Positions 11,532 to 58,809 of a stretch of DNA of 64,000 nucleotides are shown piece after piece. The stretch comes from Patescibacteria group bacterium (lineage in GTDB: Bacteria > Patescibacteriota > Microgenomatia > UBA10105 > UBA927). Each line of letters opens with the position of its first letter. The first letter of the stretch is position 1. The position numbers were made by a program, and so were the translations under genes. The stretch covers positions 213,318 through 277,317 of the forward strand of contig JAMCTH010000009.1 of the NCBI GenBank assembly GCA_023379025.1, written 5' to 3'. Below the pieces are notes generated by a model, which had not been told where the DNA came from, did no database searches, and was given only the letters and a program-made list of their open reading frames with translations.

Positions 11532-11611
11532 ACGTTCACCTCCTTAAAACGTATAAAGCCGCAGGACGCGGCTTGATGTATATATCCTCAACGTTATTTT
11601 CCGTTTTTGTT

Positions 11612-12196: not shown

Positions 12197-12369
12197 ATTT
12201 TAGTATCCCGTGTTGTACGATACTTGTCAATCAATAATTTTATTGTTAGCCGTTCGGGTTTTCCCCTGGCGGCTTTCCTTGATAAATGAGAACCTCAACA
12301 CCCTGAGAGCAAATTGCTGCCCGGGGAGATGAACCGTCAGGAAAATATCCTCGAGTAGTTACTGCAAAT

Positions 12370-12669
12370 TCAGTTGCACCCCTGCCTCCCCCGATCAGTT
12401 CCCAACAGACGCGTAAATCCATCATAGGTTACTGTTTTTTGATGTGGGATAAAAATGTTCGCTATTCCCCAGCCTTTTTCAATAGAAATGTGGCGACCCG
12501 ATGTTAGCGTGATAGTCCATGATGTAGTGCCTGGAAGAGCATCGGTATTGATGGGTAAACCTTTCAAAGGTATTTCTACCGGTTCATCTCCGATGTAAAC
12601 GCCTACTATTTGTTCCGAATACGGAATCAGAAATTCCGGCATACATTTCACCTCCCTTCTTTCCATCAA
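12370..12669 (-). CDS. hypothetical protein
   Basis: 99-aa ORF without recognisable motifs. Confidence 0.3.
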   Translation of the reverse strand: MMERREVKCMPEFLIPYSEQIVGVYIGDEPVEIPLKGLPINTDALPGTTSWTITLTSGRHISIEKGWGIANIFIPHQKTVTYDGFTRLLGTDRGRQGCN

Positions 12670-12790
12670 AAATCCCCGCCGAAACGCGGGGATCCTTATC
12701 TATCTTGCTATTGGAGATTTTTTTGGCCTCCATATTTAAGTATAGCATGCTGTGTCAACTAATCCCGATTATTTCGTCTCTTGACGCTTT

Positions 12791-13450
12791 ATGGCCGCGT
12801 CTTATAATAGGAACATGGAACCGGGTGCGGGAGCAGTCACGTACACGAATAAGCCTCTCAAATACGCAAGTATCGCAATATCCGGCAGGCCCGGAGCCGG
12901 TCGTTCCACTCTCCTCAAAAATCTTAAGGATTTTTTGTTTCCTCTCGGGTGGGAGTTTTTTTCCGGCGGGGACTGGTCGCGGCAGTTTTCGATTCAGGCC
13001 GGCAAACACCACGCATCGGATCCGACCCACCATAAGGCCACGGACTACGGTGATGAGGTGGATCATCAGATCGATGATGCGATGCGTCAGAAGATTTCTG
13101 ATCCGGACGTCCATATGGCTATTGAATCGTGGATTGCCGGATGGAATGCGCGGGGCATCCCGCATGTCCTGAAGGTTCTTCTCATGTGCGATGATGCACT
13201 CCGGATCGACCGGGTCGTGAACCGGGACAATATCTCCGTTGATGAAGCGAAGCAACACCTGCGGGACAGGGAAGAAGCCAATCTCGGCAAGTGGAAGCGC
13301 ATGTACGGGGTTAGCGACTTCTGGGATCCGAAATATTACGACCTTATTCTCAATACCTATTCCCACGCGCCCAAAGAAACGCTCAATCTGGTCCTGCAGG
13401 CGCTTGGGTATTTTTCCGCAAACGGCCAGAAAAAAGAGACAGACAGCTAA
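12791..13450 (+). CDS. cytidylate-kinase-like P-loop NTPase
   Basis: Walker A ISGRPGAGRSTL near N-terminus and overall Cytidylate_kin2-like organisation; start may be the internal Met at 12815. Confidence 0.5.
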   Translation: MAASYNRNMEPGAGAVTYTNKPLKYASIAISGRPGAGRSTLLKNLKDFLFPLGWEFFSGGDWSRQFSIQAGKHHASDPTHHKATDYGDEVDHQIDDAMRQKISDPDVHMAIESWIAGWNARGIPHVLKVLLMCDDALRIDRVVNRDNISVDEAKQHLRDREEANLGKWKRMYGVSDFWDPKYYDLILNTYSHAPKETLNLVLQALGYFSANGQKKETDS

Positions 13451-16052: not shown

Positions 16053-19000
16053 ATGGAGCTGACAGGAATCCGGGAGACGGTATTTCTCGACCGTTACGCC
16101 CTTAAAGACGAAGCGGGCAAGCCGATGGAACAAACTCCCGAGGAAATGTGGCGGCGCGTGGCGCACGCCATATCGCTGGTTGAGCCGAAAACCAAGCAGG
16201 CGTATTGGGAGGAGCAGTTTTATAAAGCGATGGAGCAGTTCGTGTTCGTGCCCGGCGGGAGGATTTTGTCCGGAGCAGGCACGGGCTATAAGGTGACCTT
16301 TTATAACTGCTTCGTGATCCCTTCTCCCCACGATTCCCGCGGCGGAATTCTCAAAACGCTTGCGCAGATGGTAGAGATCATGTCCCGCGGCGGCGGCGTG
16401 GGGATCAACCTCTCGAGCCTCCGGGCCCGCGGCGCGCGCGTAAAGAAGGTCAACGGATTTTCGTCCGGACCGTGCAACTGGGCGGAACTGTTCAGTGTGG
16501 CAACCCGGGACATCATCCAGCAGGGCGGAAGCCGGCGCGGCGCGCTCATGCTCATGCTCTGGGACTGGCACCCCGATATTGAGGAATTCATAACGGTCAA
16601 ACAGGATTTGTCCCGGATAAACGGCGCGAACCTTTCCGTGTGCGTCTCGGATGCCTTCATGGAGGCAGTCAAGACCGACGGCGACTGGGAGCTCAAATTT
16701 CCCGATATCGACGATCCGGAGTATGACACCAAGTGGGACGGGTATCTCCCCAACTGGATTGCCCTCGGAAAAAAGGTTCACGTCTATAAAACCGTGAAAG
16801 CCCGGGCACTTTGGGATCTTATCGCAAAATCCGCCTGGCGGAGCGCCGAGCCCGGCGTCGTCTTCATGGAGCGCTATAACAAGTGGTTCAACAATTATTA
16901 CTGGGAATATGTCAACTGCGTCAATCCATGCGTGACAAAAGATACATTGGTTTCAACGACCCGGGGAATGAAAACTATCAAAGACTTGTATCGTGATGGG
17001 AAACCCTTTATGGTGCTTGTTGACGGAAAGAACTATCTCTCCTCACCAGTGTTTAGCACAGGTACCAAAAAGGTGTATCGGTTGGTAACGAAAGAAGGCT
17101 ACCAAATACGATTGACCCGAGATCATAAGGTATATACGCCTACGGGAAAAGTCGCTGCTGGCAGCCTGGTTAAGGGGAATAAGATTGTATTGGGCAAAGG
17201 TGGAGCATTTGGAGTGCGTGGGACAGTAGAAGAAGGCCAGGTTTTAGGTTGGTTAGTGGGCGACGGAAGCATGAAAGCTGATGTAGCGACGCTCTATTTT
17301 TATGAGCAGGAGAAGGAAGAGCTGGCTCCGGGATTTGCAGCAATGGTGGATGCTATGGTTGGCGGCGAACAAGTGGTGTCGCGCTCCTATAGCATTGGTC
17401 CTCAATACGTTCCACAGGAAAATAAGGCAATCGTAGAGTCGGTGCGTTTATGGCGGGTGGCCCAACAATACGGCATAACGCACGAAAATAAATATGTCGT
17501 TCCAAAAGCGGTGTTTCTCGGAAGTGAGGCAATGCAAAGAGGATATCTGCAGGGGTTGTTCTCAAGTGACGGTCATGTAGAGGGCAACCGTGAAAAAGGG
17601 GTTAGCGTTCGGTTGACATCCGTGAATAAAATGCTTTTGGTGGGAGTTCAACAGTTGTTACTCAATTTTGGGATTGTAAGCACGATATATGAAAATCGAA
17701 GGAGCGCGGGCAAACGTCTCCTGCCGGATGGTCGCGGTGGACACCGGGAATACGTTTGTCAGGCTTACCACGATTTAGTGATTTCAAAGACGGACCTACA
17801 TCTGTTCGGAAGTCTTATCGGATTTTTGCAGGTGAAGAAACAAGAGAAGCTGAGAACGCTTTTGGCTACATATGTACGCGGACCGTACCGTAAATCATTT
17901 ACGGCAACATTTGATCATTTGGATGAAGAGGGGAGAGAAGATGTTTTTGATATTACTGTCGCTTCCGTGCATAAGTTTGTTGCAAACGGACTTACCGTTT
18001 CAAATTGCGGAGAAGAGGGGCTTCCGAACTGGGGCGTATGCAACCTGTGCTCCATAAATCTTGCGGCCCTCGTCAATGAGGCCGGAGAAATGAATTATAA
18101 ACGGCTCGCGGAGGTCGCCAAAACCGGCGTGCGCTTCCAGGACGACGTTATTGACAGCGACTTTTACGTCTTCCCGGAAATCAAAAAGCGCCAGCTGGAA
18201 GGGGAGCGCCGCATCGGGCTCGGAACCATGGGACTGGGGGACGCGCTTATCAAGATGAGGCTCCGCTACGGCTCGCAGGAAAGCCTTTCGGTCATCGATA
18301 AAATCTACCGGACAATCCGGGACGCGGCCTATGAGGCCTCCGTCGATATTGCGGAAGAAAAAGGCGCATTTCCGGGCATGGATACGGACCAGCACCTCGA
18401 GGCGTATTTTATCAAGCAGCTTCCGGAAGAGATCCGCCGCCGCATGAAAAAACACGGGGTCAGGAATTCCGTCATTCTCCAGCAGGCGCCGACGGGGTCG
18501 ACATCGCTTCTGGCCGGAGTTTCGAGCGGGATCGAACCGGTGTACGAGTTTGAATTCATCCGGCGTGACCGGCTGGGCGAGCACCGGCTGCGCCACCCTC
18601 TCTACGATGCATGGGTCGACGGATATAAAAGGGCGCACGACGGACAGGAGCCGCCAAAGGAAGCGCGTCCGGATTATTTCGCGTCGGCAAACGATCTGAC
18701 GCCGGAGGACCATGTCTATGTACAGGCCGCGATCCAGAAATACGTCGATGCCTCAATCAGTAAAACCGTCAACGCGCCCAAGGCCCACTCTGTCGAGGAC
18801 GTGAAGCGGCTGTACACTCTGGCCTACGAACTCGGGTGTAAAGGCATCACCTACATGAGAGCCGAGAGCAGGCCCGGCGTCCTTACGCGCGTGGACGAGG
18901 ATACACACCGCGAGGGAAAGCCCGACGGAAACGCCAATGTCCAGGTAGGATCGCAGTATGTCCCGGAGGTCAAACCCCGTCCGATGGTCGTTCACGGCTC

Positions 19001-22974: not shown

Positions 22975-25326
22975 ATGCCGGATCAATTTAGTAATCTTAT
23001 TTTTCAATTGGAAGTTTTGGGAGTAAGCGTCATTGTTATGCTTATCTGTCTTGCGGGGCTTGCTGCACTTGGGTTTGCCGCGTTTCTTCTCTGGAAGTAT
23101 CGCGATCGGGAGGATCGGTCACTCGAGTATGTGCTTCTTCAGATCGCGGTACCAAGAGATAATGAAATAAAGATAGATGTCGCAGAACAATTATTTGCAA
23201 GCCTTTACAGTATCCACCACGGTGGCTTTTGGTCATTTTTGAAACCTCAGGAACACGCATCCTTTGAAATTGTGGCCAAACACGAGGATATTCGGTTTTA
23301 CGTTTCCGTTCACCGGAAACTTATGGACCTTGTGGAAAAACAAATACATGGGGCATATCCAGGGGCTGATATCCGTCAAGTTGACGAATACACCATTTTT
23401 ACGCAAACCGGCAAGGTTGCATTCGCCGCACTAAAATTGAAAAACGCCGATTTTTTTCCGCTCCGGGTATATCGGGATTTACCAACGGATCCGTTGTCAC
23501 TTTTAACGTCAGTCCTTGCAAAAATGGGGGAGGAAGAGGGAGCTGTCGTTCAGGTGCTTATTCAACCAGCGGAAGGCAAGTGGCGAAAATTCGGCCGCTC
23601 ATATATTTCCAAGACAAAGAAGGATGAGGCAAATCCGGAAAAAGCAAGCTTTAAAGTTGATCAAAAGACTCTCGAGGCAATTGAACAAAAGACGAGTAAA
23701 CCCGGATTTAATACCGTGGTCCGGCTTGTCGTATCGTCACCGACTCAGGAGGCTGCCAAGATGCACCTTGACAATTTGCTCTCAGCGTTCAGTCAGTTTT
23801 CTTCAGACAACAATAATTTCACCAAGGTAAAACATCCGATTAAAAAATTGTTTATGGTCGATTTTATCTATCGATACTTTCCGGTATGTAATCTGCCGTT
23901 TTTTAGCCAATACAGCGTCCTCAATAGCGATGAACTTGCGACCGTGTACCATCTTCCCAATAAATCCGTCGAAACGGCGCATATATTTTGGCTTAATGCA
24001 AAACGAGCACCGGCGCCTTCACAAATTCCGACTGCCGGTTTATATCTCGGTATTTCCCGTTATCGGGGAGTTGATCGGCCAATTTATGTCGGTGATGATG
24101 ACAGGAGACGGCATGTCTATATCATCGGGAAGACCGGTACAGGGAAATCACAACTTCTTGAAGAGATGGTGATGCAGGATATTAACGCCGGTCGCGGCGT
24201 TGCGGTTATCGATCCACACGGTGATCTCGTTGAAGGAATTCTCTCACGTGTGCCGGCAGCACGGGCCGAGGACGTCATCTATTTCGATCCGGGTGATTCC
24301 GAACGCCCGATGGGCCTCAATATGCTTGAAGCATCGACGGAACAGCAGAAACATTTTGTGGCGACATCGATCGTCGGACTCATGTACAAACTCTACGACC
24401 CCATGAAAACCGGCATCATCGGTCCCCGGTTCGAGCACGCCATCAGGAATGCCATGCTGACGGTCATGGAGGCAGTCGATCACGGGACATTTATCGAAGT
24501 TGTCCAGACACTCCAGCGGCCGGATTTTGTTCAGGAACTTCTTCCAAAAGTGCAGGATCCGATCGTACGCAGATATTGGACCGATCAGATCGCGCAAACC
24601 GCTGATTTCCATAAGTCGGAAGTCCTGGATTACATCGTCTCCAAGTTCGGGCGCTTTGTCACCAATAAACTCATGCGCAACATCATCGGGCAGTCCTATT
24701 CCTCGTTTGATTTCCGTAAGGTCATGGATGAAGGGAAAATCCTCCTGGTCAACCTTGCCAAGGGGAAACTCGGCGAGGAAAACAGCAATTTTCTGGGGCT
24801 TATCCTTGTGCCGCGGATTCTCGTTTCGGCGATGAGCCGGCAGGAAATGCCCGAGGAGAAGCGCCGCGATTTTTATCTGTATGTCGACGAGTTTCAGAAT
24901 TTCGCAACGCCGGATTTTGCCCAGATCCTTTCCGAAGCGCGCAAATACCGACTCAACCTTATCGTTGCCAACCAGTTTATCGGACAGATGGAGGAGGAGG
25001 TGAAAAATGCCGTATTCGGCAACGTCGGCTCGCTTATCTCCTTCCGTGTCGGCGTGACGGATGCCAATTACCTTCAGCACGAGTACCAGCCGACGTTTAA
25101 CGAGACGGACCTCATCAATATCGATAAATATAATGCCTATGTGAAAACTATCGTCCGCAACGAACCGGTGAAACCCTTCAGCATGGATCTGACGAAAGAC
25201 ATGGCCAAAGTCAACAGTCTCAAAAATCCCGAGATTGCTGCCGCCATCGTTCAGCTCTCGCGCCTCAAGTACGGAAGATCACGCGAGATCGTAGAAGCGG
25301 AGATCAGTCAGCGCGCCAGACTGTAA
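22975..25326 (+). CDS. membrane-anchored P-loop ATPase of the VirB4/VirD4 (conjugative transfer / DNA-translocase, AAA_10/TraG-D_C-like) superfamily
   Basis: N-terminal TM hairpin (LEVLGVSVIVMLICLAGLAALGFAAFLLW); Walker A YIIGKTGTGKSQ followed by VIDPHGD; Walker B context FYLYVDEFQNF; 783 aa. Confidence 0.6.
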   Translation: MPDQFSNLIFQLEVLGVSVIVMLICLAGLAALGFAAFLLWKYRDREDRSLEYVLLQIAVPRDNEIKIDVAEQLFASLYSIHHGGFWSFLKPQEHASFEIVAKHEDIRFYVSVHRKLMDLVEKQIHGAYPGADIRQVDEYTIFTQTGKVAFAALKLKNADFFPLRVYRDLPTDPLSLLTSVLAKMGEEEGAVVQVLIQPAEGKWRKFGRSYISKTKKDEANPEKASFKVDQKTLEAIEQKTSKPGFNTVVRLVVSSPTQEAAKMHLDNLLSAFSQFSSDNNNFTKVKHPIKKLFMVDFIYRYFPVCNLPFFSQYSVLNSDELATVYHLPNKSVETAHIFWLNAKRAPAPSQIPTAGLYLGISRYRGVDRPIYVGDDDRRRHVYIIGKTGTGKSQLLEEMVMQDINAGRGVAVIDPHGDLVEGILSRVPAARAEDVIYFDPGDSERPMGLNMLEASTEQQKHFVATSIVGLMYKLYDPMKTGIIGPRFEHAIRNAMLTVMEAVDHGTFIEVVQTLQRPDFVQELLPKVQDPIVRRYWTDQIAQTADFHKSEVLDYIVSKFGRFVTNKLMRNIIGQSYSSFDFRKVMDEGKILLVNLAKGKLGEENSNFLGLILVPRILVSAMSRQEMPEEKRRDFYLYVDEFQNFATPDFAQILSEARKYRLNLIVANQFIGQMEEEVKNAVFGNVGSLISFRVGVTDANYLQHEYQPTFNETDLINIDKYNAYVKTIVRNEPVKPFSMDLTKDMAKVNSLKNPEIAAAIVQLSRLKYGRSREIVEAEISQRARL

Positions 25327-26852: not shown

Positions 26853-26924
26853 GCGCCCGTAGCTCAGCGGCAGAGCGCGTGTCTTATAAACACGAGGCGC
26901 TTGGATCGTCACCAAGCGGGCGCA
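26853..26924 (+). tRNA. tRNA-Ile (anticodon TAT / UAU)
   Basis: Manual cloverleaf: acceptor GCGCCCG/CGGGCGC, D-arm GCTC-AGCGGCA-GAGC, anticodon stem CGTGT/ACACG with loop CTTATAA (U33, A37), T-arm CTTGG-ATCGTCA-CCAAG, discriminator A; T-loop is atypical (A54, U58). Confidence 0.55.
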
Positions 26925-26944
26925 CAGAATTCAGTTATTCAATT

Positions 26945-27526
26945 ATGGATATACCCCACGTCAAACAAACGGAAGAAGAGGTAGTGGTGTTGGTCGATGA
27001 AGACAATCACGAGATCGGTACGGCGCCGAAAGCGACAGTTCATGCCAATAATACGCCATTACACCGGGGTTTTTCATTATTTCTATTTAATTCCAAAGGT
27101 CAATTGTTATTGACCCGTCGCGCCCTAACAAAAAAGACCTTTCCCGGTGTCTGGACGAATACAGTATGCGGCCATCCCGGGCCGGGGGAGAGTGTAGAAG
27201 ATGCCGCAAGAAGAAGGCTATATGAGGAGTTGGGAGTTTCATTAGGGTTGAACCCTGGCGCCCAGGGTTCAACCCTGTCGCAGAACATAAGAGTTGTCAC
27301 CCCGTATTGCTATCGTTTTGCGGATCAAAACGGGATTGTAGAAAACGAGATCTGTCCTGTATTAGTGGCACATGCCGATGTTGAGCCTCATCCGAACAAA
27401 GCAGAAATTGAGGAATGGAAGTGGATAGACTGGCAGGAATTTCTTAACGAGGTTGAAACCCTGCCTCAGAAGTATTCTCCATGGAGTAGAGAAGAAACGA
27501 GGCTTCTTACAGCTCTTCCAGCTTGA
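26945..27526 (+). CDS. idi: isopentenyl-diphosphate delta-isomerase, type 1 (NUDIX fold)
   Basis: IDI-1 motifs FSLFLFNSKGQLLLTRRALTKKTFPGVWTNTVCGHP and YEELG; the track ORF starts upstream inside the tRNA and is trimmed to MDIPHV. Confidence 0.7.
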   Translation: MDIPHVKQTEEEVVVLVDEDNHEIGTAPKATVHANNTPLHRGFSLFLFNSKGQLLLTRRALTKKTFPGVWTNTVCGHPGPGESVEDAARRRLYEELGVSLGLNPGAQGSTLSQNIRVVTPYCYRFADQNGIVENEICPVLVAHADVEPHPNKAEIEEWKWIDWQEFLNEVETLPQKYSPWSREETRLLTALPA

Positions 27527-28370
27527 CGTTTTCGGCGGCTTTCCCTTTGACGAGTTCGAGATATTTTTCCGTTGTCGAGAGGCGTTTGTGACCGACGAGT
27601 TTAGAGAGCGTCGTGATAGGCGTGCCCGCCATGAGGTGATGGGCGATGAAGGTGTGCCGGAGGTCATTGACTTTGGCATCCTCAATGCCCGCGACGCGAA
27701 AATAGCGGTCAATAGCCGTGCGGATATTCCGGATCAGGAGCGGTTTGCCGGTTTTGGTAATAAACAGGGCTGACGACCCTTCTTTCCCCCGGATTTCCAG
27801 GTATTTACCAAGTGCTTCCTTGGCGGCCTTATTGAGGGGGACCATGCGTTCCGCATGACCCTCCTGGGCCGCAATATGGAGTTCCGTTTCCCGGACGTCT
27901 TCCGTCGTCAGATTGGCAAGCTCGCCGATACGCACTCCCGTCTGGAGAAAGAGCTCTACGATGGCATACGTCCTGACATCTCCGCGGCAGGCATCCCGAA
28001 GCGCCCGGTATTCGAGTTTGGAAAGGATGCGCGGCGGTTTCACTTCGTATTTGGGGTGTTCGATTTCGACTGCCGGATCCAGAGTGATAATACCGGAAGC
28101 CTTTAGGTATCGGAAAAAGGTTTTTATGGAATTGATCTTACGGGAGACGGACTTTGCCTTGTAATTGTCTGAGTTGAGCTTCTTGATGAACGCGTCAAGC
28201 TCTTCACGGCTTACGTCCCCGATGGTCTTTTTGCCCATGTTGGTGAGGAATGAGACCAATTGATCGATGTCTTTGCCGTATGCTACGATGGTAGCGCGGG
28301 CACGCCGGAGGCTCCCGAGGTATTCGGTAAACTGTCCGTGAGCAGCTTTGAGATCAAGTGCGGTAGCCAT
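27507..28370 (-). CDS. tyrosine recombinase (XerC/XerD-like integrase)
   Basis: N-terminal SAM-like core-binding domain, catalytic region with R...HxxR...Y (LRHTFIAHHLMAG...STTEKYLEL); 287 aa; lies between two convergent tRNA genes. Confidence 0.75.
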   Translation of the reverse strand: MATALDLKAAHGQFTEYLGSLRRARATIVAYGKDIDQLVSFLTNMGKKTIGDVSREELDAFIKKLNSDNYKAKSVSRKINSIKTFFRYLKASGIITLDPAVEIEHPKYEVKPPRILSKLEYRALRDACRGDVRTYAIVELFLQTGVRIGELANLTTEDVRETELHIAAQEGHAERMVPLNKAAKEALGKYLEIRGKEGSSALFITKTGKPLLIRNIRTAIDRYFRVAGIEDAKVNDLRHTFIAHHLMAGTPITTLSKLVGHKRLSTTEKYLELVKGKAAENVKLEEL

Positions 28371-29282: not shown

Positions 29283-29307
29283 CAGAAAACCATCCCATTA
29301 ATCCAAG

Positions 29308-29379
29308 TGCCAGGGGAGAGGATCGGACTCTCGACCGTCACCTTATGAAGATGCTGCTCTACCGCTGAGCTACCCTGGC
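29308..29379 (-). tRNA. tRNA-Met (anticodon CAT; elongator Met or lysidine-type Ile2 cannot be distinguished)
   Basis: Reverse complement folds as acceptor GCCAGGG/CCCTGGC, D-arm GCTC-AGCGGTA-GAGC, anticodon loop TTCATAA on a 4-bp stem with one G·A mismatch, T-arm GAGAG-TCCGATC-CTCTC, discriminator A. Confidence 0.6.
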
Positions 29380-29564
29380 CTGAAGTACGTGCTTATTTTA
29401 CGGAAATTACGGGTGAAAGGCAATCAATGAGCAGGAGAACTGAGGTGATTTATAAGGGTGAGGGAGTCTATGGACATGAAGATTTTCAGGATGCATTTCT
29501 CCAGAATACCCCTTTGGGTTGTTGCCAAAAGACTCTCAATGCGCGGACTTTCTGTGCACGTTCC

Positions 29565-29618
29565 GGGTCCGGGAGCCCTTTCGACTCAAAGACCCGCTCA
29601 GGATAAACTACTCCTCCC
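29565..29618 (+). repeat. module-2 repeat copy A (GGGTCCGGGAG...CTCAGGATAAACTACTCCTCCC)
   Basis: About 70% identical over 54 nt to copy B at 32809-32862 (aligned by eye); preceded at 29525-29546 by CCAAAAGACTCTCAATGCG, which matches the left arm of the 32872-32902 hairpin. Confidence 0.5.
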
Positions 29619-29669
29619 GGCAGGAGGTGCAAATAAAAATCCTCCATAATGAGGGTCTTTATTATATCT

Positions 29670-29703
29670 GTTGCGGGGAGTACAAGAACTTAGAACCTAT
29701 TAT
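29670..29703 (+). repeat. R1: 34-nt direct repeat GTTGCGGGGAGTACAAGAACTTAGAACCTATTAT (tRNA 3'-half-like on minus strand)
   Basis: Family of four close copies (R1-R4), all same orientation; reverse complement ends CCCCGCAAC like the 3' end of the initiator-like tRNA at 32910-32979. Confidence 0.55.
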
Positions 29704-29803
29704 CTTCAAGATTTGCCCAATACAACTTAGCAGTTGCAGATTTTAATATATAAAGTCAATGCTGATTGAGGTAAAATAGGCCGTCTTAACAATCTAAATG
29801 TAA

Positions 29804-29837
29804 GTTGTGTGGAGTACGAAAAATTGGAACCTATCAG
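29804..29837 (+). repeat. R2: GTTGTGTGGAGTACGAAAAATTGGAACCTATCAG
   Basis: Second copy of the R family, 35 bp upstream of the radical-SAM fragment ORF. Confidence 0.5.
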
Positions 29838-29872
29838 TTGACCGTTTACATCTTTTTCCACTAGTTTAGCCC

Positions 29873-30673
29873 GTGAGCGATTCAGATTGTACTATTCTCC
29901 TTGGGGAACTCACCGAGGTTTTGGAAGTACAATTTGATTCTCCGCCTGATTACAGTTTATTCAAAGGAGAAAAATGTATCCCAAGACTCATGTTGAGCGA
30001 TGGCTGTTTATTCCGTTGTTCTTTTTGTACCGTCCCCACCACATTAACAGTCGTATCTCCTGGGAAAATAGAAGAACAGGTAGAGGAACTTAAGGTTCTT
30101 GATTTTAAGCTCATTTTTATCAATGATAAATCATTTGGACAAGCCAAAAATTGGCGAGCAATACGCGAAGTTTTCGAGCAAGTACATAGATACAATCAAG
30201 ATTTCTTAGGATTTATCGTCCAAACGCCTCCCAGTTTAGCTTTAAAGGATCGACTGATGGAAGCTGCGGTCGATTTAGGAGTAAAATATATGGAGTTTGG
30301 AGTAGAAACGGTCAGTGATGAACATCTTGCGTTGTTTAATAAGCCTTATCGTGTAAAACATTTAGATGAAGCATGTGAACGAGCACGGCGATTAGGACTC
30401 AAGATTATCCCAAATTTTATCTTAGGAATTCCTGGAGATGATTACAAGGCAACCATTGAATGGGTGACGAGAAATAGAGATATTATTCCTGTTGTCAATA
30501 TTAACTTTTTAGCGCTTCATTTTGGGAATATGCGAGGTAGACTGCCATGGCAGTCACAGACGTTAGGCGATCGAGATCAAAACGTGGCGAAAAAGTCATG
30601 GCTTTCCCAGGATGACCTAGCTCGCATGAGAGATGCCATGGAAACTATATATGCAATCACCTCAGGGAGCTAA
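29873..30673 (+). CDS. radical SAM domain protein, apparently N-terminally truncated (B12-binding radical SAM-like core without the B12 domain)
   Basis: CxxxCxxC motif CLFRCSFC at aa 45-52 preceded by the typical IPRLMLSDGC context; only ~30 aa upstream of the cluster instead of a cobalamin-binding domain; begins right after repeat R2. Confidence 0.5.
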   Translation: MSDSDCTILLGELTEVLEVQFDSPPDYSLFKGEKCIPRLMLSDGCLFRCSFCTVPTTLTVVSPGKIEEQVEELKVLDFKLIFINDKSFGQAKNWRAIREVFEQVHRYNQDFLGFIVQTPPSLALKDRLMEAAVDLGVKYMEFGVETVSDEHLALFNKPYRVKHLDEACERARRLGLKIIPNFILGIPGDDYKATIEWVTRNRDIIPVVNINFLALHFGNMRGRLPWQSQTLGDRDQNVAKKSWLSQDDLARMRDAMETIYAITSGS

Positions 30674-31343
30674 ACTATCATTTGATTTTGGATTTGTCAT
30701 TCCACTCCAGGCAGAAGCACGACCGTTATTGGATACACTCAAAAACAGAAAGCACAGGGATGGCTCGAGAACGATATACACGGGCCTATTCCACAATAAA
30801 AAGGTAAGTCTTATTATTTCCGGCTGTGGGAAGATCAAATCTGCATCCGCAACACAATATCTGATTGACGGCTATCCGGCAAGGACATATATCCATTATG
30901 GAACTGCAGGCGCTCTTTCCGACAAACTCAACATAGGCGATATTGTCATTGCGACACAGGTGATTGAGCACGATGTAGTGGAATTATTTCCAAAAAAGGT
31001 CCCTCCTCCTGTCCATAAAATATTCACGGAACGATTGAAAAGACAGTTGAAAGGTTTTCATGGCTCACCGCTTGTTTGGGGATCAATTCTATCGGGAGAT
31101 GAAGATATTATTACAGCGAAAAGGAAAAAGGAACTATATCAACAACACAAAGGCTTTTCAGTAGATTGCGAATCGGCAGGGTTTGCATTAACGTGCCAAT
31201 TAAATCATGCACAAGGGTATGTATTTCGTGGCATTAGCGATCATGCCTATGAACATACATCATCCGAATATGAAAAAAATCGAAAGGTAACGATTGATAA
31301 TATGGTAAAACTTTTTATCTATCTAGTCATCAGCCACCCCTAA
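30633..31343 (+). CDS. MTA/SAH nucleosidase (PNP_UDP_1 family) -like protein
   Basis: GCGKIKSASATQYLIDGY...YGTAGALSDKLNIGDIVIATQVIEHDV resembles MtnN/Pfs; 41-nt overlap with the preceding radical-SAM ORF; true start likely a few codons downstream. Confidence 0.55.
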   Translation: MPWKLYMQSPQGAKLSFDFGFVIPLQAEARPLLDTLKNRKHRDGSRTIYTGLFHNKKVSLIISGCGKIKSASATQYLIDGYPARTYIHYGTAGALSDKLNIGDIVIATQVIEHDVVELFPKKVPPPVHKIFTERLKRQLKGFHGSPLVWGSILSGDEDIITAKRKKELYQQHKGFSVDCESAGFALTCQLNHAQGYVFRGISDHAYEHTSSEYEKNRKVTIDNMVKLFIYLVISHP

Positions 31344-31372
31344 GTTTTAGGTTCTGATTTGTTGTAAGCCCT

Positions 31373-31813
31373 ATGTTGCGGGTGTTACAGAAAATTAGAA
31401 CCTATTATTTAACAGAGGCGGTCAAAAATTGTCTTAATGTACATTTTGTGGCTATGGACTTTAGCCAAGATTTATTTCCTGATGGAAGTTTTGATTTGGT
31501 AACTATGTCTTATGGTCTTAGGTTTGTCCCTAAAGGCCATGAAAAGAATTTTGTCCAAAATATAATTAGGTGGATGAGAATCGGAGGCAAGTTAATTCTT
31601 GTCGATTTACAATCAGCAAAATTTGAACGATTGCAAGAATTTATCTCCCATTGTCTTTGGAAAGCAGACAATCTCCAATTTAAGAGAGAAGAAAATTTGA
31701 TTGATGCCTTTGGAGCTAATCTTAAACTTATGGGAATTTCTCGCCTTGGACAGGAGAGACTTTTAGCCAAAACTGTTGCTTATTATTTTGAGAAAACTGT
31801 AGGCTATAAATGA
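31373..31813 (+). pseudogene. C-terminal fragment of a class I SAM-dependent methyltransferase (Methyltransf_11-like) lacking motif I
   Basis: Only the post-motif-II portion (DLVTMSYGLRFVPKGHEKNFVQNIIRWMRIGGKLILVDL) is present; the N-terminal GxGxG region is replaced by repeat R3. Confidence 0.45.
31375..31408 (+). repeat. R3: GTTGCGGGTGTTACAGAAAATTAGAACCTATTAT, with upstream inverted partner TAGGTTCTGA at 31348-31357
   Basis: Third R copy; overlaps the annotated ATG of the methyltransferase fragment. Confidence 0.55.
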
Positions 31814-31848
31814 TAAAATATTACATTGTGACGGCCTAAACCTTATTT

Positions 31849-31882
31849 GTTGCGGGGGTTGCGAGAAATGGGAACCTATTCT
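31849..31882 (+). repeat. R4: GTTGCGGGGGTTGCGAGAAATGGGAACCTATTCT
   Basis: Fourth R copy, 35 bp after the methyltransferase-fragment stop. Confidence 0.5.
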
Positions 31883-31900
31883 TTAATCGCGTAAAAATAA

Positions 31901-32746
31901 TCATTTTGCATTTATATCCACTATAAACGGATAATGGTCGGAGGTGCGATCAAACAGGTCTCCACGTACAACCCATGTCGAGGCAACAACGATATTGGGT
32001 GTGCCGAATGCGTAATCAAACCGTAAAAACGGAGAAATGAGTCTGGAGAATTTCTTAGTCGGAGTGATGGGCTGCACATTTGAAGCTGCCATGTCGACAA
32101 ACCCATGAGACTTAATCAACTGAATTGTCCCCCTGTGAGCAATTTTGCTTTCGACTGAATAGACACGGTGCTTTAACCGTCGGGGGAGGTATCGGTATAT
32201 CCTTTGAAACGTCTTCTGAACATATTCGATGTCACGATCAGCGAGCGAATTAAAGTCACCCGTGATAATGGTGTGTTTTCCTGGTTCAATATGCTGCATA
32301 AGTGCCGCGAGTTGTTGCATTCGTCTTTTTTCGGCAACGTCGTCAAGATAGACAGAAAATATATCTACGGGTTTGTCATCGATTTTTAACGATGTTTTAA
32401 TAGCATCCCGGGTGCCCAGAGAAACCGTTTGAAACTTCACAGTATCAGAATTTGAAAGGACCGTTATCCCGTTATTGTGACCAAGTTTCTTGAGGCGGTC
32501 GTCATTGAGGTTTATACAATATGCATGTTTATACTTGAACATCGTTTGGAGTTGTTCCTGGCTATACAAAGAATCCCAACGGAATGTGTCTACGAGAGTT
32601 ACAAAATCAGCATGAAATGAACGGATGCCTTCAATAATCTCAGGAAGAAAATGAGGTGACAGCGACGTGACATCATACCCCTCAAACCCGCCGCTTTCGA
32701 TATTCCATTCGGCAAAACGCGTGCTTTGTCGTTCTGGAGAATTCAT
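31901..32746 (-). CDS. endonuclease/exonuclease/phosphatase (EEP) family protein
   Basis: EEP motifs TGDFNSL and SDHYPFIVDI; 281 aa. Confidence 0.65.
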   Translation of the reverse strand: MNSPERQSTRFAEWNIESGGFEGYDVTSLSPHFLPEIIEGIRSFHADFVTLVDTFRWDSLYSQEQLQTMFKYKHAYCINLNDDRLKKLGHNNGITVLSNSDTVKFQTVSLGTRDAIKTSLKIDDKPVDIFSVYLDDVAEKRRMQQLAALMQHIEPGKHTIITGDFNSLADRDIEYVQKTFQRIYRYLPRRLKHRVYSVESKIAHRGTIQLIKSHGFVDMAASNVQPITPTKKFSRLISPFLRFDYAFGTPNIVVASTWVVRGDLFDRTSDHYPFIVDINAK

Positions 32747-32808
32747 GGGAGTTATTATAGCAAATATAAAAATAGCCCGTATGAACGGGCTAAATTAGAT
32801 TCGGTTGC

Positions 32809-32862
32809 GGGGCCGGGAGTTCCTTCGCCGTCAGAACGGTCTCAGGATAAACTGCTCCTCCC
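32809..32862 (+). repeat. module-2 repeat copy B (GGGGCCGGGAG...CTCAGGATAAACTGCTCCTCCC), preceded by partial R copy GTTGCGG at 32804
   Basis: Paralogue of 29565-29618. Confidence 0.5.
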
Positions 32863-32871
32863 AGCCGATAC

Positions 32872-32902
32872 CAAAAAGACTCTCGAATTGAGAGCCTTTT
32901 TG
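32872..32902 (+). other. near-perfect 13-bp-stem hairpin CAAAAAGACTCTC-GAATT-GAGAGCCTTTTTG immediately 3' of the initiator-like tRNA (minus-strand sense)
   Basis: Seen in sequence; one mismatch in stem; left arm also present as a half-copy at 29525-29546. Confidence 0.45.
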
Positions 32903-32909
32903 GTATAAG

Positions 32910-32979
32910 TTGCGGGGCCGGGAGTCGCACCCGGCCTAGAAGATTATGAGCCTTCTGTGCTACTGTACACTACCCCGCG
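32910..32979 (-). tRNA. initiator-like tRNA (anticodon CAT, C1·A72 mismatch), possibly atypical or pseudo
   Basis: Reverse complement CGCGGGG...CTCATAA...CCGGG-TGCGACT-CCCGG-CCCCGCA-A begins and ends like E. coli tRNA-fMet (CGCGGGG...CCCCCGCAACCA); but the D-stem is only 3 bp, the anticodon stem GAAGG/TCTTC lacks the three G-C pairs, and the T-loop has G55. Confidence 0.45.
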
Positions 32980-33062
32980 GTTCGTTAAAGAACTTTCGTA
33001 TTATAGTCTACACGCATCTAATGAGCAATTCGTACCTATGGCGTATGCTACAATAATACCCT

Positions 33063-43043: not shown

Positions 43044-45222
43044 CTGAAGCACCTCTCATTTGTCTCGCCTGTACAACCAAAAGCTTACCGTCCGTTGTGA
43101 TGATGAGTTCCACATCCTGAAATTGCTGAAAGATCCGTTCTATTTGCTGAACCGTTTCAATAATATCCAAAATAGAGTCGGCAGGAACATCTGGCGGATT
43201 TCCGGTGACTATTATGTCCTTTTGTTGAACTGTACCTGATCGTGGGTATTTGATTTGTATTTTATCCGTTGCTGTAGCGGAAACCAGCGATTCGGGTGTA
43301 CCTTCAGTCAGTTCTATAAGAAATTCATCTTGACTTGTAAAAATGACTGCCCCTATTGACGCATCTGATACATACTGTTGGACTATCACTCCCAAATCCA
43401 TTTGTGAAGGGTTATGTCCGAGATGACGGAGTGTCCGGATGCTTTCCGGTTTGAAGTAGCTTGTGAGTGTCTTGCGGATTGCTTCGATAACGGACTGTTC
43501 GGGAATATCGACCACCGAGTCGTAGAGTCCTGCTAAGGAATAAGGCCCGTCTTCCGGTCCGGAGGAACGTACGGCAAACCGAGTATAGGGATGGTTATCG
43601 AGCGCTATACGCAGCTGTTCAATAAAAGCGGGCGGAACCGGAGCGTGAGTAATTTTTTCCTGTATTTGTCGTGTCAGGCGATTTATCTGGCGATCTCTGT
43701 CAGGGTTTACGACATCAAGCTGATGAATAAGCGCGTCTAGCCCAATGTCATGGAGGAGATTGCGTATAGCTTCACTGGTGAGGGCAAATCCTGGCGGTAC
43801 CGGAATGTTATAATACAGCAATTCTGCCAGAGCAGCAGCTTTTCCCCCAGCTTCCCTGTTTCTCAAAAGATTATAATCCGTAAGGTCAATAATTGCCCGT
43901 TTGTATGGATCAAGAAATTCAATAATAGGATCGCCATGTTCTGATAGGGATATGTTTACGCGCTCGCCATCCCAATATGACCGATCTCCAACGTGAATGA
44001 CATTGTGATGACTGTCTATGAGCGCTCTAGCCGGGTGCGATGTTTCAGCGGAGCCGTAGAGGAGCGCAGTAACCCGTTCAATCCCCGGAATCGTCGCAAC
44101 CCTGTGAAAAAGGTCAGAAGCACGGTTTCGGAAGGCACCGGGACCAAAATAGACAATCGGATGCGATCCTGTGATTTTTTGCAGATCATCCTCCGTTTCG
44201 ATGCGTACGATCGTACCGGTTATCGCTTCACCGGGAACAATGTGCAGGAGGCGATCCTGATCAGGAGCGTATGGAGCAATTTCCCTGATATAAACACCAT
44301 CTTCCTGAACGATAAATTCCAATCGTGAATTTGGGCGGGTTGCAAACACCTTAGCTGCCTGGTCTGCAAGATCCAGGAGCTCTCTATCCGTGAGTGCGGG
44401 CTCCAGCTGAAATTCCTTGGGAACAGTGTACGGCCAGTATTCGTTTCCAATGCCGGGAATGAGAGTGCGATATTTGAGCGCGATTTCCATAGCAGTTCGG
44501 GAGTTACGCTCAGTGTCATAATATATCGTATCGGTTGGACAACTTTGGACCGCTTCATCGGCTCCGAACGTGGCGACTATTTTAATCAGGCCCGGTCTAC
44601 CGGGTACCGGAGTGGGTACGATATATCCTCCGGTCCACGGAAGCTTTTCTTTTTCCGGAACCGGTATCCGTCCATAATAATCGCGTCGATCCATGACATT
44701 GATAAACGGATGGAGGATGAGCGCGATATCACATCCTTCTTGGTCGTACCCGTTTGCTCCGGCATAGTCCCAGATTTCCAAAACCTGTCGTACATACTCA
44801 TCCTTTTCATAAATTGCCGCGCTTCTGGGGCCTTTCGGGTTATCCACACCCGGGACATAGACGGCACGGCCGACGTAGGCACCCCGTGTGGGATTAGCTT
44901 TGCGGATTACATCAAAGACATCACCGATTTCTATTGCAAGTTCATCGGTGAGCCCGTGATCACGGTATTCGACGAACGCTTCATGACCGAGAACAAACAT
45001 GGGATCCGGCGAGCGTAGACCGAGCTTGGTCATTTCTTGATATCCCTGAAGTTTGGAGGAGGGACTTTCATAGTTATCGAGGCTAAAAACGAACTGCGAC
45101 ACACCGTCGTCTTGCTTAAATTCGATACCTGGCATAGGAAGATAAGTTCGAGGCAGGAATCGGGCGAAGTATAGCAGAGAGGGGGAGGGAAGTAAAACCA
45201 AGACAGCCTGATTCGGTATCAT
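43033..45222 (-). CDS. protein with C-terminal PEP-utilising-enzyme N-terminal (PPDK_N, ATP-grasp-type nucleotide-binding) domain and ~400-aa N-terminal domain of unknown function
   Basis: C-terminal half carries GGKAAALAELL...PVPPGFALT...FAVRSSGPEDGPYSLAGLYDS typical of PEP synthase / pyruvate phosphate dikinase N-domains; no phosphohistidine swivel or PEP-binding domain follows; low GC. Confidence 0.5.
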   Translation of the reverse strand: MIPNQAVLVLLPSPSLLYFARFLPRTYLPMPGIEFKQDDGVSQFVFSLDNYESPSSKLQGYQEMTKLGLRSPDPMFVLGHEAFVEYRDHGLTDELAIEIGDVFDVIRKANPTRGAYVGRAVYVPGVDNPKGPRSAAIYEKDEYVRQVLEIWDYAGANGYDQEGCDIALILHPFINVMDRRDYYGRIPVPEKEKLPWTGGYIVPTPVPGRPGLIKIVATFGADEAVQSCPTDTIYYDTERNSRTAMEIALKYRTLIPGIGNEYWPYTVPKEFQLEPALTDRELLDLADQAAKVFATRPNSRLEFIVQEDGVYIREIAPYAPDQDRLLHIVPGEAITGTIVRIETEDDLQKITGSHPIVYFGPGAFRNRASDLFHRVATIPGIERVTALLYGSAETSHPARALIDSHHNVIHVGDRSYWDGERVNISLSEHGDPIIEFLDPYKRAIIDLTDYNLLRNREAGGKAAALAELLYYNIPVPPGFALTSEAIRNLLHDIGLDALIHQLDVVNPDRDRQINRLTRQIQEKITHAPVPPAFIEQLRIALDNHPYTRFAVRSSGPEDGPYSLAGLYDSVVDIPEQSVIEAIRKTLTSYFKPESIRTLRHLGHNPSQMDLGVIVQQYVSDASIGAVIFTSQDEFLIELTEGTPESLVSATATDKIQIKYPRSGTVQQKDIIVTGNPPDVPADSILDIIETVQQIERIFQQFQDVELIITTDGKLLVVQARQMRGASVIH

Positions 45223-45254
45223 TTAGGTAATTTCATAATGATAGAATACTAATT

Positions 45255-58785: not shown

Positions 58786-58809
58786 TTATATCCATTTTCG
58801 CTTCACGCT

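What the first reader, a model, noticed from the sequence alone, without database searches (positions are those of the whole stretch)
29283..33060. Low-GC island bounded by two tRNA(CAT) genes, built from tRNA-3'-half-like direct repeats separating gene fragments
The backbone is roughly 57% GC; this ~3.8 kb stretch is visibly AT-rich. It begins at a minus-strand tRNA-Met(CAT) (29308-29379) and ends at a minus-strand initiator-like tRNA(CAT) (32910-32979). Every intergenic spacer inside it holds a copy of a ~34-nt direct repeat (R1 29670, R2 29804, R3 31375, R4 31849, plus partial copies at 32804 and within the tRNA itself). The reverse complement of that repeat, ...ATAGGTTCTAA...CTCCCCGCAAC, resembles the T-arm and 3'-acceptor end of the initiator tRNA (compare the 3' ends of the local tRNA and E. 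coli tRNA-fMet, ...CCCCGCAAC). Between the repeats sit a radical-SAM core lacking its B12 domain, an MTAN/PNP-like gene overlapping it by 41 nt, the C-terminal half of a SAM methyltransferase whose start is overwritten by R3, and an EEP nuclease, with a MazG-like NTPase just outside. Integrases that target tRNA genes leave direct repeats of the tRNA 3' half, so the simplest reading is a hotspot where several generations of small integrative elements or cassettes piled up and decayed. The radical-SAM + 5'-deoxyadenosine/MTA nucleosidase + methyltransferase trio may be the remnant of a tailoring or defence module; MazG-like and EEP nucleases are common defence-island components. This is the most system-like accessory structure in the window and has no obvious named counterpart.
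Basis: partly seen in the sequence, partly recalled or inferred. Interest (0 to 1): 0.72.

Follow-up and report, generated by a model that had tools for sequence, protein, structure and literature searches.

The report
Gene-cassette array anchored at initiator tRNA
Next to the initiator-tRNA gene of this tiny uncultured bacterium (Candidatus Gottesmanbacteria) sits a row of small swappable gene cassettes, each marked by the same 31-base tag, which looks like an undescribed integron-like way of collecting accessory genes.

Summary
A 3.5-kb island of 40.9% GC (the rest of the window is 52.2%) lies between an elongator tRNA-Met and an initiator-type tRNA(CAT). It holds four same-strand copies of a ~31-nt repeat (R) and two tRNA-end-like mini-units (A and B).

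R is not a decayed tRNA half. Only its first 9 nt (GTTGCGGGG, the tRNA-fMet 3' acceptor strand) match the tRNA. The other 22 nt are a conserved non-tRNA sequence.

R occurs in same-orientation arrays in many other Gottesmanbacteria contigs. Wherever the tRNA-fMet is also on the contig, the array lies on its 3' side. Each unit usually carries one unrelated accessory gene and ends in a terminator hairpin about 10 nt before the next core.

An empty site compared with occupied sites, and identical cassettes with different neighbours (including this window's EEP cassette), place the exchange point inside the 9-nt core. That indicates site-specific recombination of integrase-less cassettes into the tRNA-fMet 3' end. 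The arrangement is like an integron or an SCC island in layout, but its sites are unrelated.

The window's array is partly decayed: the radical-SAM and methyltransferase genes are truncated and one core is degenerate.

The recombinase is unidentified. A conserved Xer-family gene nearby is the only candidate seen.

The parts
27507..28370 (-). Xer-family tyrosine recombinase (287 aa). It is the only recombinase gene in the window and the candidate, unproven, catalyst.
   Evidence: Pfam Phage_integrase plus SAM_1. NCBIfam scores it about equally against XerC, XerD and XerA (~155-164 bits), and the integron-integrase model gives only 65 bits against a cutoff of 265. phmmer finds no other tyrosine or serine recombinase in the window. 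Orthologues (56-81% identity) flank the hotspot in many loci.
29307..29379 (-). Elongator tRNA-Met(CAT). It is the distal boundary of the array.
29560..29669 (+). Mini-cassette B. It has a degenerate core (GTTCCGGGT), a ~60-nt body and a hairpin, and carries no gene.
   Evidence: It is 74% identical to unit A over 62 nt. A terminator-like hairpin lies at 29639-29656.
29670..29803 (+). R1 (core 29670-29678, R body to 29700) and an empty 134-nt cassette.
29804..31374 (+). R2 cassette. R2 (29804-29834) has a degenerate core, GTTGTGTGG. The cargo is the radical-SAM fragment at 29873-30673 and the PNP/MTAN-like gene at 30633-31343.
   Evidence: The truncation of the radical-SAM gene is shown. The intact operon elsewhere, with no R site flanking it, is shown.
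31341..31367 (-). Inverted partial copy of the R body. It forms a strong hairpin with R3.
   Evidence: I2. The fold is -30.8 kcal/mol with z = -5.4. The same head-to-head form occurs at L090 position 4286.
31375..31848 (+). R3 cassette. R3 is at 31375-31405. The cargo is the C-terminal part of a class I SAM methyltransferase (ORF 31373-31813), whose 5' end is missing.
31849..32803 (+). R4 cassette. R4 is at 31849-31879. The cargo is an intact EEP-family gene at 31901-32746 on the - strand. A terminator hairpin at 32773-32792 sits 11 nt before the next core.
   Evidence: The same cassette is found core to core (968 nt, 81% identity) with different neighbours in L152.
32804..32908 (+). Mini-cassette A. 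It has the core plus 8 more tRNA-identical nt, a ~45-nt body and a two-way terminator hairpin (~32868-32906). It lies next to the tRNA 3' end.
   Evidence: Equivalent units occur at L003 7945-8038 and L117 1125-1219.
32909..32979 (-). Initiator-type tRNA(CAT). Its last 9 nt (32909-32917, GTTGCGGGG on the + strand) are the shared crossover core, the equivalent of an integron's attI.

Best explanation
The island is an array of small gene cassettes that carry no integrase. They were inserted one after another by site-specific recombination into the 3' end of the initiator tRNA gene.

Cassette structure. Each cassette carries one recombination site. The site consists of a 9-bp core, GTTGCGGGG, identical to the tRNA-fMet acceptor 3' strand, followed by a conserved 22-bp 'R body' (consensus GTTACAAGAAGTTAGAACCTAT). 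The R body is presumably what the recombinase recognises. The rest of the cassette is cargo, usually one ORF in either orientation, and a terminator hairpin that ends about 10 nt before the next core.

How the array forms. Recombination between the core of a circular cassette and the core at the tRNA end gives flank-[core-R body-cargo-hairpin]n-core-tRNA. The tRNA stays intact, and each new cassette supplies a terminator for it.

What is shown: the layout, the conservation of R, the link to the tRNA-fMet 3' side, and the position of the exchange point inside the core.

What is inferred: that the cassettes pass through a circular intermediate, that the enzyme is a tyrosine recombinase supplied in trans, and that this enzyme may be the conserved neighbouring Xer-family protein.

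The copy in this window is an ageing example. R2 has a mutated core, two cargo genes (radical SAM, methyltransferase) have lost their 5' parts, and three units (B, R1, A) are empty.
For: 1. Distribution of R.
- R is restricted to the island in this window.
- It recurs in other Gottesmanbacteria: L006 has 4 copies and L033 has 3. 38 of the 39 metagenome stretches from the pattern scan (several come from the same or duplicate contigs) have 1-5 copies each by nhmmer.
- Within every locus all copies point the same way.

2. Position relative to the tRNA.
- On all 4 independent contigs that hold both R and tRNA-fMet (window, L033, L114, L119), the array is on the tRNA's 3' side with the core as a direct repeat.
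- In L114 the tRNA is inverted relative to Xer, and R is inverted with it.

3. Empty versus occupied site. In L005, L007 and L009 a conserved flank abuts core + tRNA body. In L118 and L091 the homologous flank abuts core + R body.

4. Cassette swaps.
- Identical downstream cassettes have unrelated upstream sequence right up to position -1.
- Identical upstream cassettes are followed by different R bodies from position +10.
- The exchange point therefore lies within the 9-nt core, which is too short for homologous recombination.

5. The window's own EEP cassette. Window 31847-32814 matches L152 over 968 nt at 81% identity. The match starts at one core and ends about 10 nt past the next, and the neighbours differ.

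6. Conservation and the hairpin.
- R has 84% mean pairwise identity against 31-35% in the flanks.
- The upstream 50 nt fold to a mean of -11.1 kcal/mol against -4.9 for the control (p = 2e-8).
- The hairpin foot lies mostly 5-13 nt before the core.

7. Cargo. It is heterogeneous and compact, with one ORF filling roughly 45-90% of a unit (typically about 80%). Examples are hydrolases, Fic, GrpB, EamA, NUDIX, M23 and GIY-YIG. None is a recombinase.

8. Origin of the genes. None of the island genes is present at this locus in 12 related genomes. The island GC matches a foreign, lower-GC origin.
Against: - No recombinase has been tied to R.
  - The only recurrent recombinase near arrays is a housekeeping-looking Xer. 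It is equally present next to empty sites, and some arrays (L006, L084) have no Xer gene in the sequence fetched around them.
  - No circular cassette or excision junction was observed.
- R shows only a weak internal dyad (GGTTACAA-GAAG-TTAGAACC, my reading of the consensus), and the sequence left of the core is barely conserved. The site does not look like a classical symmetric core site.
- A few sites have the right half of R joined to other sequence (L093, L085, L107, L116, L090). The simple model does not explain these.
- L006 has an array with no tRNA-fMet in the 21 kb held.
- Only parts of each genome were examined, so restriction of R to this one locus is not proven genome-wide.
Confidence: 0.7

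Rival explanations
1. Full-size integrative elements, each with its own integrase, inserted repeatedly into the tRNA gene, as with tycheposons or genomic islands. They then decayed, leaving tRNA-3'-half direct repeats and gene fragments.
For: - The target is a tRNA 3' end, and the direct repeats include tRNA sequence: 9 nt in R and 17 nt in unit A.
- This window does contain truncated genes and a degenerate repeat.
- Tandem insertion at tRNA sites with partial-tRNA repeats is documented for tycheposons.
Against: - No integrase fragments were found among the cassette ORFs. Among 118 ORFs in and around arrays, the only recombinase family hit by two or more was the Xer orthologue's.
- R is far better conserved than its surroundings and is mostly non-tRNA sequence.
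- Units are one gene long, and the cargo ORFs outside this window look complete.
- Whole cassettes are exchanged with exact core-to-core boundaries.
- No R was found on IMG/VR viral contigs.
Confidence: 0.12
2. The cassettes are non-autonomous transposon-like units, similar to MITEs or Tn7-like elements. A transposase supplied in trans inserts them into the sequence GTTGCGGGG and duplicates it as a 9-bp target-site duplication.
For: - Every unit is flanked by the same 9-bp sequence.
- A 9-bp duplication is typical of several DDE transposase families (own knowledge).
- Repeated insertion into one copy of the target would give the same array layout.
Against: - There are no terminal inverted repeats. 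The R body and the other cassette end are unrelated in inverted orientation.
- No transposase was found in the window, and none was recurrent near arrays.
- Absolute specificity for a 9-bp target inside a tRNA end is more typical of site-specific recombinases.
Confidence: 0.08
3. R is a regulatory or RNA element, for example a 3'-UTR, processing or terminator-associated signal, or a REP-like repeat. On this view it accumulated in a variable region, and units are shuffled by ordinary homologous recombination between R copies.
For: - About two thirds of cargo genes would carry the reverse complement of R in their 3' UTR just before a terminator hairpin.
- Roughly 12 of 54 sites share an extra conserved leader, which hints at an additional function.
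Against: - R has no predicted structure on either strand and no Rfam match.
- It keeps one orientation per array regardless of gene orientation.
- It was not seen outside this locus.
- The tRNA/R and flank/R junctions share only 9 nt, which is too short for RecA-type exchange.
- R-body variants travel with the downstream cassette.
Confidence: 0.07

Closest known systems
Integrons (intI / attI / attC cassette arrays, including CALINs)
   Same: - A fixed chromosomal entry site is followed by a one-directional array of small, mostly single-gene cassettes that lack an integrase.
- Each cassette carries one recombination site. Read in the tRNA's direction, that site sits at the 3' end of most cargo genes.
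- Cargo is very diverse.
- Identical cassettes are found in different orders in different genomes.
   Different: - There is no IntI-type integrase.
- R is a conserved linear 31-nt sequence, not a structure-defined imperfect palindrome with RYYYAAC/GTTRRRY boxes.
- The entry site is inside a tRNA gene.
- Cassettes occur in both orientations and bring their own terminator, so they are probably not driven from one Pc promoter.
SCC elements and composite islands at the 3' end of rlmH (orfX) in staphylococci (own knowledge)
   Same: - Insertion is into the 3' end of a housekeeping gene, which stays intact.
- Short direct repeats of the target bound each unit.
- Tandem arrays include units without recombinase genes, which can be moved in trans.
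   Different: - SCC units are kilobases to tens of kilobases long.
- They are moved by large serine recombinases (CcrAB/CcrC).
- The target is a protein-coding gene, and no conserved 22-nt accessory sequence accompanies the repeat.
Tycheposon-seeded genomic islands of Prochlorococcus (10.1101/2020.12.28.424599)
   Same: - Streamlined genomes have tRNA-anchored variable islands.
- These are built by repeated site-specific insertion, which pushes older elements outward and leaves partial-tRNA repeats.
   Different: - Tycheposons carry their own integrases and replication modules and use ~40-nt tRNA segments as attachment sites.
- Here the units are single genes and no integrase is present.
- Only 9 nt are tRNA-derived.
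IMEX elements and pdif modules (Xer-dependent integration and module exchange) (own knowledge)
   Same: - Small modules without a recombinase are bounded by ~28-31-bp sites and moved by a host Xer recombinase.
- Here the only recombinase nearby is Xer-family, and R has the length of a Xer site.
   Different: - R shows no clear dif-like 11-6-11 organisation.
- The locus is not at a GC-skew switch.
- pdif modules have alternating site orientation and sit on plasmids.
- The dif site of these bacteria is unknown, so similarity could not be tested.

Membership tests
Integron | An IntI-type integrase (a tyrosine recombinase with the integron-specific extra domain) encoded next to the array | tested here: not met
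   The only recombinase is Xer-like. The NCBIfam integron-integrase models score 65 bits (cutoff 265) and 33 bits (cutoff 435). No other recombinase is found in the window.
Integron | attC sites: imperfect inverted repeats (R''-L''...L'-R') with RYYYAAC / GTTRRRY boxes that fold as a single-stranded hairpin | tested here: not met
   R copies fold no better than shuffles on either strand, apart from R3, which pairs with an extra inverted copy. The conserved part lies on the wrong side of the GTT for an attC. The upstream hairpins look like short terminator stems of variable sequence. No attC covariance model was available to run.
Integron | An array of small cassettes without recombinase genes, one site per cassette, with exchange at the site | tested here: met
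tRNA-integrating genomic island / tycheposon | The element encodes its own integrase next to the tRNA-proximal attachment site | tested here: not met
   No integrase was found in the island, in the cassette ORFs examined, or recurrently among 118 ORFs in and around arrays other than the Xer orthologue.
tRNA-integrating genomic island / tycheposon | Direct repeats that copy a substantial (~30-40+ nt) 3' segment of the target tRNA | tested here: not met
   Identity to the tRNA is 9 nt for R and 14-17 nt for the A-type units.
tRNA-integrating genomic island / tycheposon | Insertion at the 3' end of a tRNA gene that leaves the tRNA intact | tested here: met
IMEX / dif module (Xer-dependent) | The boundary sites resemble the host dif site (two ~11-bp Xer-binding arms around a 6-8-bp central region) | tested here: inconclusive
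   R is 31 nt long with a weak dyad, GGTTACAA-GAAG-TTAGAACC (consensus; the dyad is my reading). The host dif site is unknown and could not be located in the sequence held.
IMEX / dif module (Xer-dependent) | Integration at the chromosomal dif site in the terminus region | tested here: not met
   Cumulative GC skew rises steadily across the whole window, with no switch at 29-33 kb.
IMEX / dif module (Xer-dependent) | Recombination catalysed by the host Xer recombinase | not testable with these tools
   A Xer-family gene is adjacent in many loci, but it is also adjacent to empty sites.
REP / MITE-type dispersed repeat | Copies dispersed through many intergenic regions of the genome, with palindromic or terminal-inverted-repeat structure | tested here: not met
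   The window has 0 copies outside the island in 64 kb, and the related loci have none outside the hotspot. No palindrome or terminal inverted repeat is present. Whole genomes were not available.
CRISPR array | Regularly spaced repeats separated by 25-50-nt spacers | tested here: not met
   Spacing is 134-2400 nt or more, and the intervals contain ORFs.
Known anti-phage defence system (PADLOC) | The island proteins match the component models of a defined system | tested here: not met
   There are only weak generic domain hits of 21-26 bits, and none for EEP, MazG or the intact radical-SAM homologue.

The most novel reading that the evidence does not exclude
Gottesmanbacteria, and perhaps other Microgenomates, have a gene-capture platform analogous to integrons but evolutionarily unrelated to them. 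The 3' end of the initiator tRNA gene serves as the entry site. A conserved 31-nt sequence serves as the cassette site. The cell's own housekeeping Xer recombinase, encoded next door in many genomes, moves the cassettes. This would give these ~1-Mb genomes a shared, exchangeable pool of accessory genes.
Probability: 0.25. Interest if true: 0.9.

Novelty: new variant of a known kind. Interest (0 to 1): 0.74.

Why it matters
CPR/Patescibacteria have tiny genomes, few recognisable mobile elements and no genetic tools. How they acquire accessory genes is therefore largely unknown.

A cassette system with a defined 31-nt site and a defined chromosomal entry point would explain a hypervariable locus shared across a whole candidate phylum-level lineage.

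It would add an independently evolved counterpart to integrons. That bears on how cassette systems arise. Here a chromosomal radical-SAM/nucleosidase operon appears as a truncated copy inside a cassette.

It would also provide a short, portable site that could be tested as an integration tool for these uncultured bacteria.

Finally, the finding is directly testable with existing metagenome reads and with a simple two-plasmid recombination assay.

Tried and rejected
- R as a tRNA 3' half. In register, only the 9-nt acceptor strand and CCTA match. The 17 nt between them do not form a T-arm, and no tRNA or Rfam hit covers R.
- R as a promoter. No hexamer pair has workable spacing (my reading of the sequence). 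R4 would point antisense into EEP. The promoter scan found no more sites than shuffles did.
- R as an attC. It has no inverted-repeat architecture.
- R as a primer-binding site complementary to tRNA-fMet-CCA. The two bases before the core are not the TG this would require.
- Phage or plasmid carriers of R. Three scans of IMG/VR gave no full R, only chance matches to the right half.
- A dedicated recombinase.
  - Among 118 ORFs in and around arrays, the only recombinase family with two or more members was the Xer orthologue's. Families hit by a single ORF were not listed.
- A defence module. PADLOC gave only weak generic hits.
- Homologues of the methyltransferase fragment. None was found except the same sequence, so its intact form and origin remain unknown.
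- Exact-sequence look-ups of the window's EEP and radical-SAM proteins returned only the same genomic context from two samples.
- Literature. Eight searches found no description of such arrays in CPR bacteria.

Full report
**1. What is in the window.**

ARAGORN and Rfam confirm three tRNAs:
- tRNA-Met(CAT) at 29307-29379(-).
- tRNA(CAT) at 32909-32979(-), with the C1:A72 mismatch typical of bacterial initiators.
- tRNA-Ile(TAT) at 26853.

The stretch between the two CAT tRNAs is 40.9% GC and the rest of the window is 52.2%.

Four copies of a 31-39-nt direct repeat (R) start at 29670, 29804, 31375 and 31849, all on the + strand. The spaced pattern gave 4 matches where 0.18 were expected, and 0 of 100 shuffles reached 4. 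All four exact GTTGCGGGG 9-mers in the 64 kb lie in the island on the + strand.

A second repeat of 62 nt (74% identity) lies at 29560 ('B') and 32804 ('A'). A begins with the last 17 nt of the tRNA.

Pfam identifies these genes:
- a radical-SAM ORF at 29873-30673;
- a PNP/MTAN-like ORF at 30633-31343;
- the C-terminal part of a class I methyltransferase at 31373-31813;
- an EEP-family ORF at 31901-32746(-);
- outside the island: MazG, a Xer-like recombinase (27507-28370), DivIC and NUDIX.

The organism is a Candidatus Gottesmanbacteria bacterium (CPR, Microgenomates), judged from the relatives of its TrpS.

**2. R is not a tRNA half.**

In register with the tRNA, R shares GTTGCGGGG (the acceptor 3' strand plus the discriminator and one more base) and CCTA 17 nt further on. 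The 17 nt between them do not form a T-arm. R folds no better than shuffled sequence on either strand, and Rfam finds nothing there. R3 is preceded by an inverted partial copy of the R body, which gives one strong hairpin.

**3. R is widespread and tied to one locus.**

The gene order Xer-DivIC-tRNA-Met-[variable]-tRNA-fMet-(tRNA-Trp)-TrpS-FtsH recurs in related genomes. None of the island's genes occurs there.

R itself does recur:
- L006 has four copies and L033 has three.
- A pattern scan of metagenome contigs returned 39 stretches. Several come from the same or duplicate contigs. A profile search found 1-5 copies of R in 38 of them, all in one orientation per locus and typically 0.35-2.4 kb apart.
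- Many of these contigs carry the Xer, DivIC, TrpS or FtsH orthologues, so they are the same locus.

Across 54 distinct sites, R averages 84% pairwise identity and the adjoining 31 nt average 31-35%.

On all four independent contigs that hold both R and tRNA-fMet (window, L033, L114, L119), the array lies on the tRNA's 3' side with the core as a direct repeat. In L114 the tRNA is inverted relative to Xer, and the R copy is inverted with it.

**4. The exchange point is the 9-nt core.**

- Empty versus occupied site. In L005, L007 and L009 a conserved flank meets core + tRNA body. In L118 and L091 the homologous flank meets core + R body.
- Cassette swaps. The same downstream cassette follows four unrelated upstream sequences that differ up to position -1. 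The same upstream cassette is followed by different R bodies that differ from position +10.
- The window's own EEP cassette. Window 31847-32814 aligns with L152 over 968 nt at 81% identity. The alignment starts at one core and ends about 10 nt past the next. After that core the window has unit A and L152 has another R.

Nine shared bases are too few for homologous recombination. Site-specific recombination, or a rarer site-specific transposition, is therefore indicated.

**5. Anatomy of a cassette.**

Units are 134 to about 2400 nt long, with a median near 800. A single ORF fills roughly 45-90% of the unit, typically about 80%, in either orientation. About two thirds of the genes are co-oriented with the tRNA.

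The cargo is unrelated from unit to unit. Examples are an alpha/beta hydrolase, PhoU/AbrB, Fic, a ComB-type phosphatase, GrpB, EamA, a metallophosphoesterase, NUDIX, an M23 peptidase, GIY-YIG, PhzF, methyltransferases and unknowns.

The 50 nt before each core are strongly structured: mean -11.1 kcal/mol against -4.9 for the control (p = 2e-8). They form an A-run/GC-stem/T-run hairpin whose foot sits mostly 5-13 nt, most often 10-11 nt, before the core. In the window these hairpins score as terminators, one at 32792-32773 on the - strand and one at 32880-32894.

Read in the tRNA's direction, the layout is tRNA-core | hairpin-cargo-(R body)-core | hairpin-cargo-... Each incoming cassette therefore supplies the terminator for whatever lies upstream of it, including the tRNA. 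That last point is inference.

**6. State of this particular array.**

From the tRNA-Met side the units are:
- B: 110 nt, degenerate core, empty.
- R1: 134 nt, empty.
- R2: core mutated to GTTGTGTGG; radical-SAM + PNP genes.
- R3: methyltransferase fragment.
- R4: intact EEP gene.
- A: 105 nt, empty.
- Then the tRNA.

The radical-SAM ORF corresponds to residues 137-393 of a 395-aa, 86%-identical protein. It has lost the N-terminal domain, which by comparison with class B (B12-binding) radical-SAM models would be the cofactor-binding domain.

The intact radical-SAM + PNP pair is a two-gene operon in another Gottesmanbacterium (L122). No R site flanks it there, and it is 75% identical at the DNA level. 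The window's copy is therefore a captured and truncated version.

The methyltransferase fragment has no homologue in the database other than the same sequence. The same island, 100% identical, is present in a second sample.

PADLOC gives no support for a defence module.

**7. The recombinase is unknown.**

The window holds only one recombinase gene. It is Xer-family, scoring about equally as XerC, XerD or XerA, and is not IntI.

Among 118 ORFs in and around arrays, the only recombinase family hit by two or more was that of this Xer's orthologues. Families hit by a single ORF were not listed.

However, Xer is just as conserved next to empty sites. Some arrays have no Xer gene in the sequence fetched around them (L006, L084). 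The locus is not at a GC-skew switch.

R was not found on viral contigs.

I put the chance that Xer is the catalyst at about 0.3. The alternative is an unlinked integrase.

**8. Comparison with known systems and novelty.**

In layout and logic this resembles three known systems:
- integrons: an entry site plus an array of cassettes without integrases;
- SCC composite islands at rlmH (own knowledge);
- tRNA-seeded tycheposon islands.

It fails the defining tests of each. It has no IntI or attC. It has no integrase borne on the element and no long tRNA repeat. It has no dif-like context. The membership table gives the details.

Eight literature searches found no description of such arrays in CPR bacteria.

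I therefore rate it a new variant of a known kind, namely site-specific cassette arrays. Confidence in the cassette-array explanation is about 0.7. The mechanism's enzyme remains open.

**9. Unexplained observations.**

- A few sites carry only the right half of R joined to other sequence, or have an insertion inside R (L093, L085, L107, L116, L090).
- About 12 of 54 sites are followed by a conserved ~45-nt leader. By eye it resembles a motif in the native flank of empty sites.
- The A/B mini-units keep an enclosing stem with compensatory changes in four examples. They may be a small RNA or a structured site.
- Both + strand cargo genes of the window are truncated within 100 nt of their R body.

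Noticed in passing
L003 8039-8330(-), L005 9295-9561(+), L033 1741-2013(-), L114 1834-2095(+), L150 3999-4268(-): In several related Gottesmanbacteria the initiator tRNA gene is interrupted in the anticodon loop by a ~200-260-nt insert. Rfam calls it a group I intron in L003 and L033 (RF00028, 64-65 bits); in L005, L114 and L150 the call rests on the split tRNA halves alone. ARAGORN therefore misses these tRNAs. The window's tRNA-fMet has no intron. The 5' exon ends ...GGCU and the insert ends ...G, as expected for group I splicing.
   Followed up: partly
window 32804-32908 and 29560-29669; L003 7945-8038; L117 1125-1219: The ~105-nt geneless 'A/B' mini-cassettes share a conserved inner motif (CTCAGGATAAACTGCTC). 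A 7-9-bp stem encloses it and keeps pairing through compensatory changes in 3 of 7 pairs across four examples. A terminator hairpin follows. They could be a small RNA gene or a structured site. There is no Rfam match.
   Followed up: partly
window 26853-26925 (+): A tRNA-Ile with anticodon TAT is present. AUA codons are therefore probably read by this tRNA rather than by a lysidine-modified CAT tRNA, which supports calling the tRNA at 29307-29379 an elongator tRNA-Met.
   Followed up: no
L093 5116(-), L085 1202(+), L107 7808(-), L116 1136(-), L090 3144(-): These are variant R sites. Three have the right half of R joined to ...GAAGG in place of the core. Two have a break or a 19-nt insertion (CCCGCCCGCCGTTGGAGGG) between ACAAG and AAGTTAGAAC. 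They may be hybrid products with a second kind of partner site.
   Followed up: no
L100 110(-), L083 121(-), L091 121(-), L094 4791(+), L107 1704(-), L116 654(-), L085 2366(+) and others; compare L007 ~8210-8250: About 12 of 54 R sites are followed by a conserved leader (CTGTTAGCCTCGTATCAGCCTCAGATTGCTTCGATATG...). By eye it is similar to a motif in the native flank 70-110 nt from the core at empty tRNA-fMet sites. Its function is unknown.
   Followed up: no
L122 8001-9850 (GCA_001780985.1): An intact 395-aa radical-SAM gene and a 221-aa PNP/MTAN-like gene overlap by 4 nt and form an operon with no R site flanking it in another Gottesmanbacterium. Homologues of ~390-410 aa also occur in Streptomyces. 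The pairing suggests a radical-SAM enzyme coupled to removal of its 5'-deoxyadenosine or MTA by-product. The substrate is unknown.
   Followed up: partly
L006 9494-11359: In L006 the TrpS ORF is 621 aa long and has an extra N-terminal ~150-aa extension. In this window TrpS is 478 aa and carries a C-terminal tRNA-binding domain (PF01588).
   Followed up: no
L006 2004-2117 (+): Rfam finds a LOOT RNA (RF03000, 87.6 bits) a few kb from the R array of L006.
   Followed up: no
window 55475-55501, 58766-58792, 61897-61923: A second direct-repeat family of 27 nt (AATTTCCAATTTCAATCAACCTATCTC; 70-89% identity) has three copies spaced ~3.1-3.3 kb apart. It is unrelated to R.
   Followed up: no
window 11000-13000, 17000-18000, 23000-24000, 45000-47000: These are other patches of lower GC (42-47%) in the window. 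They contain no R copies.
   Followed up: no
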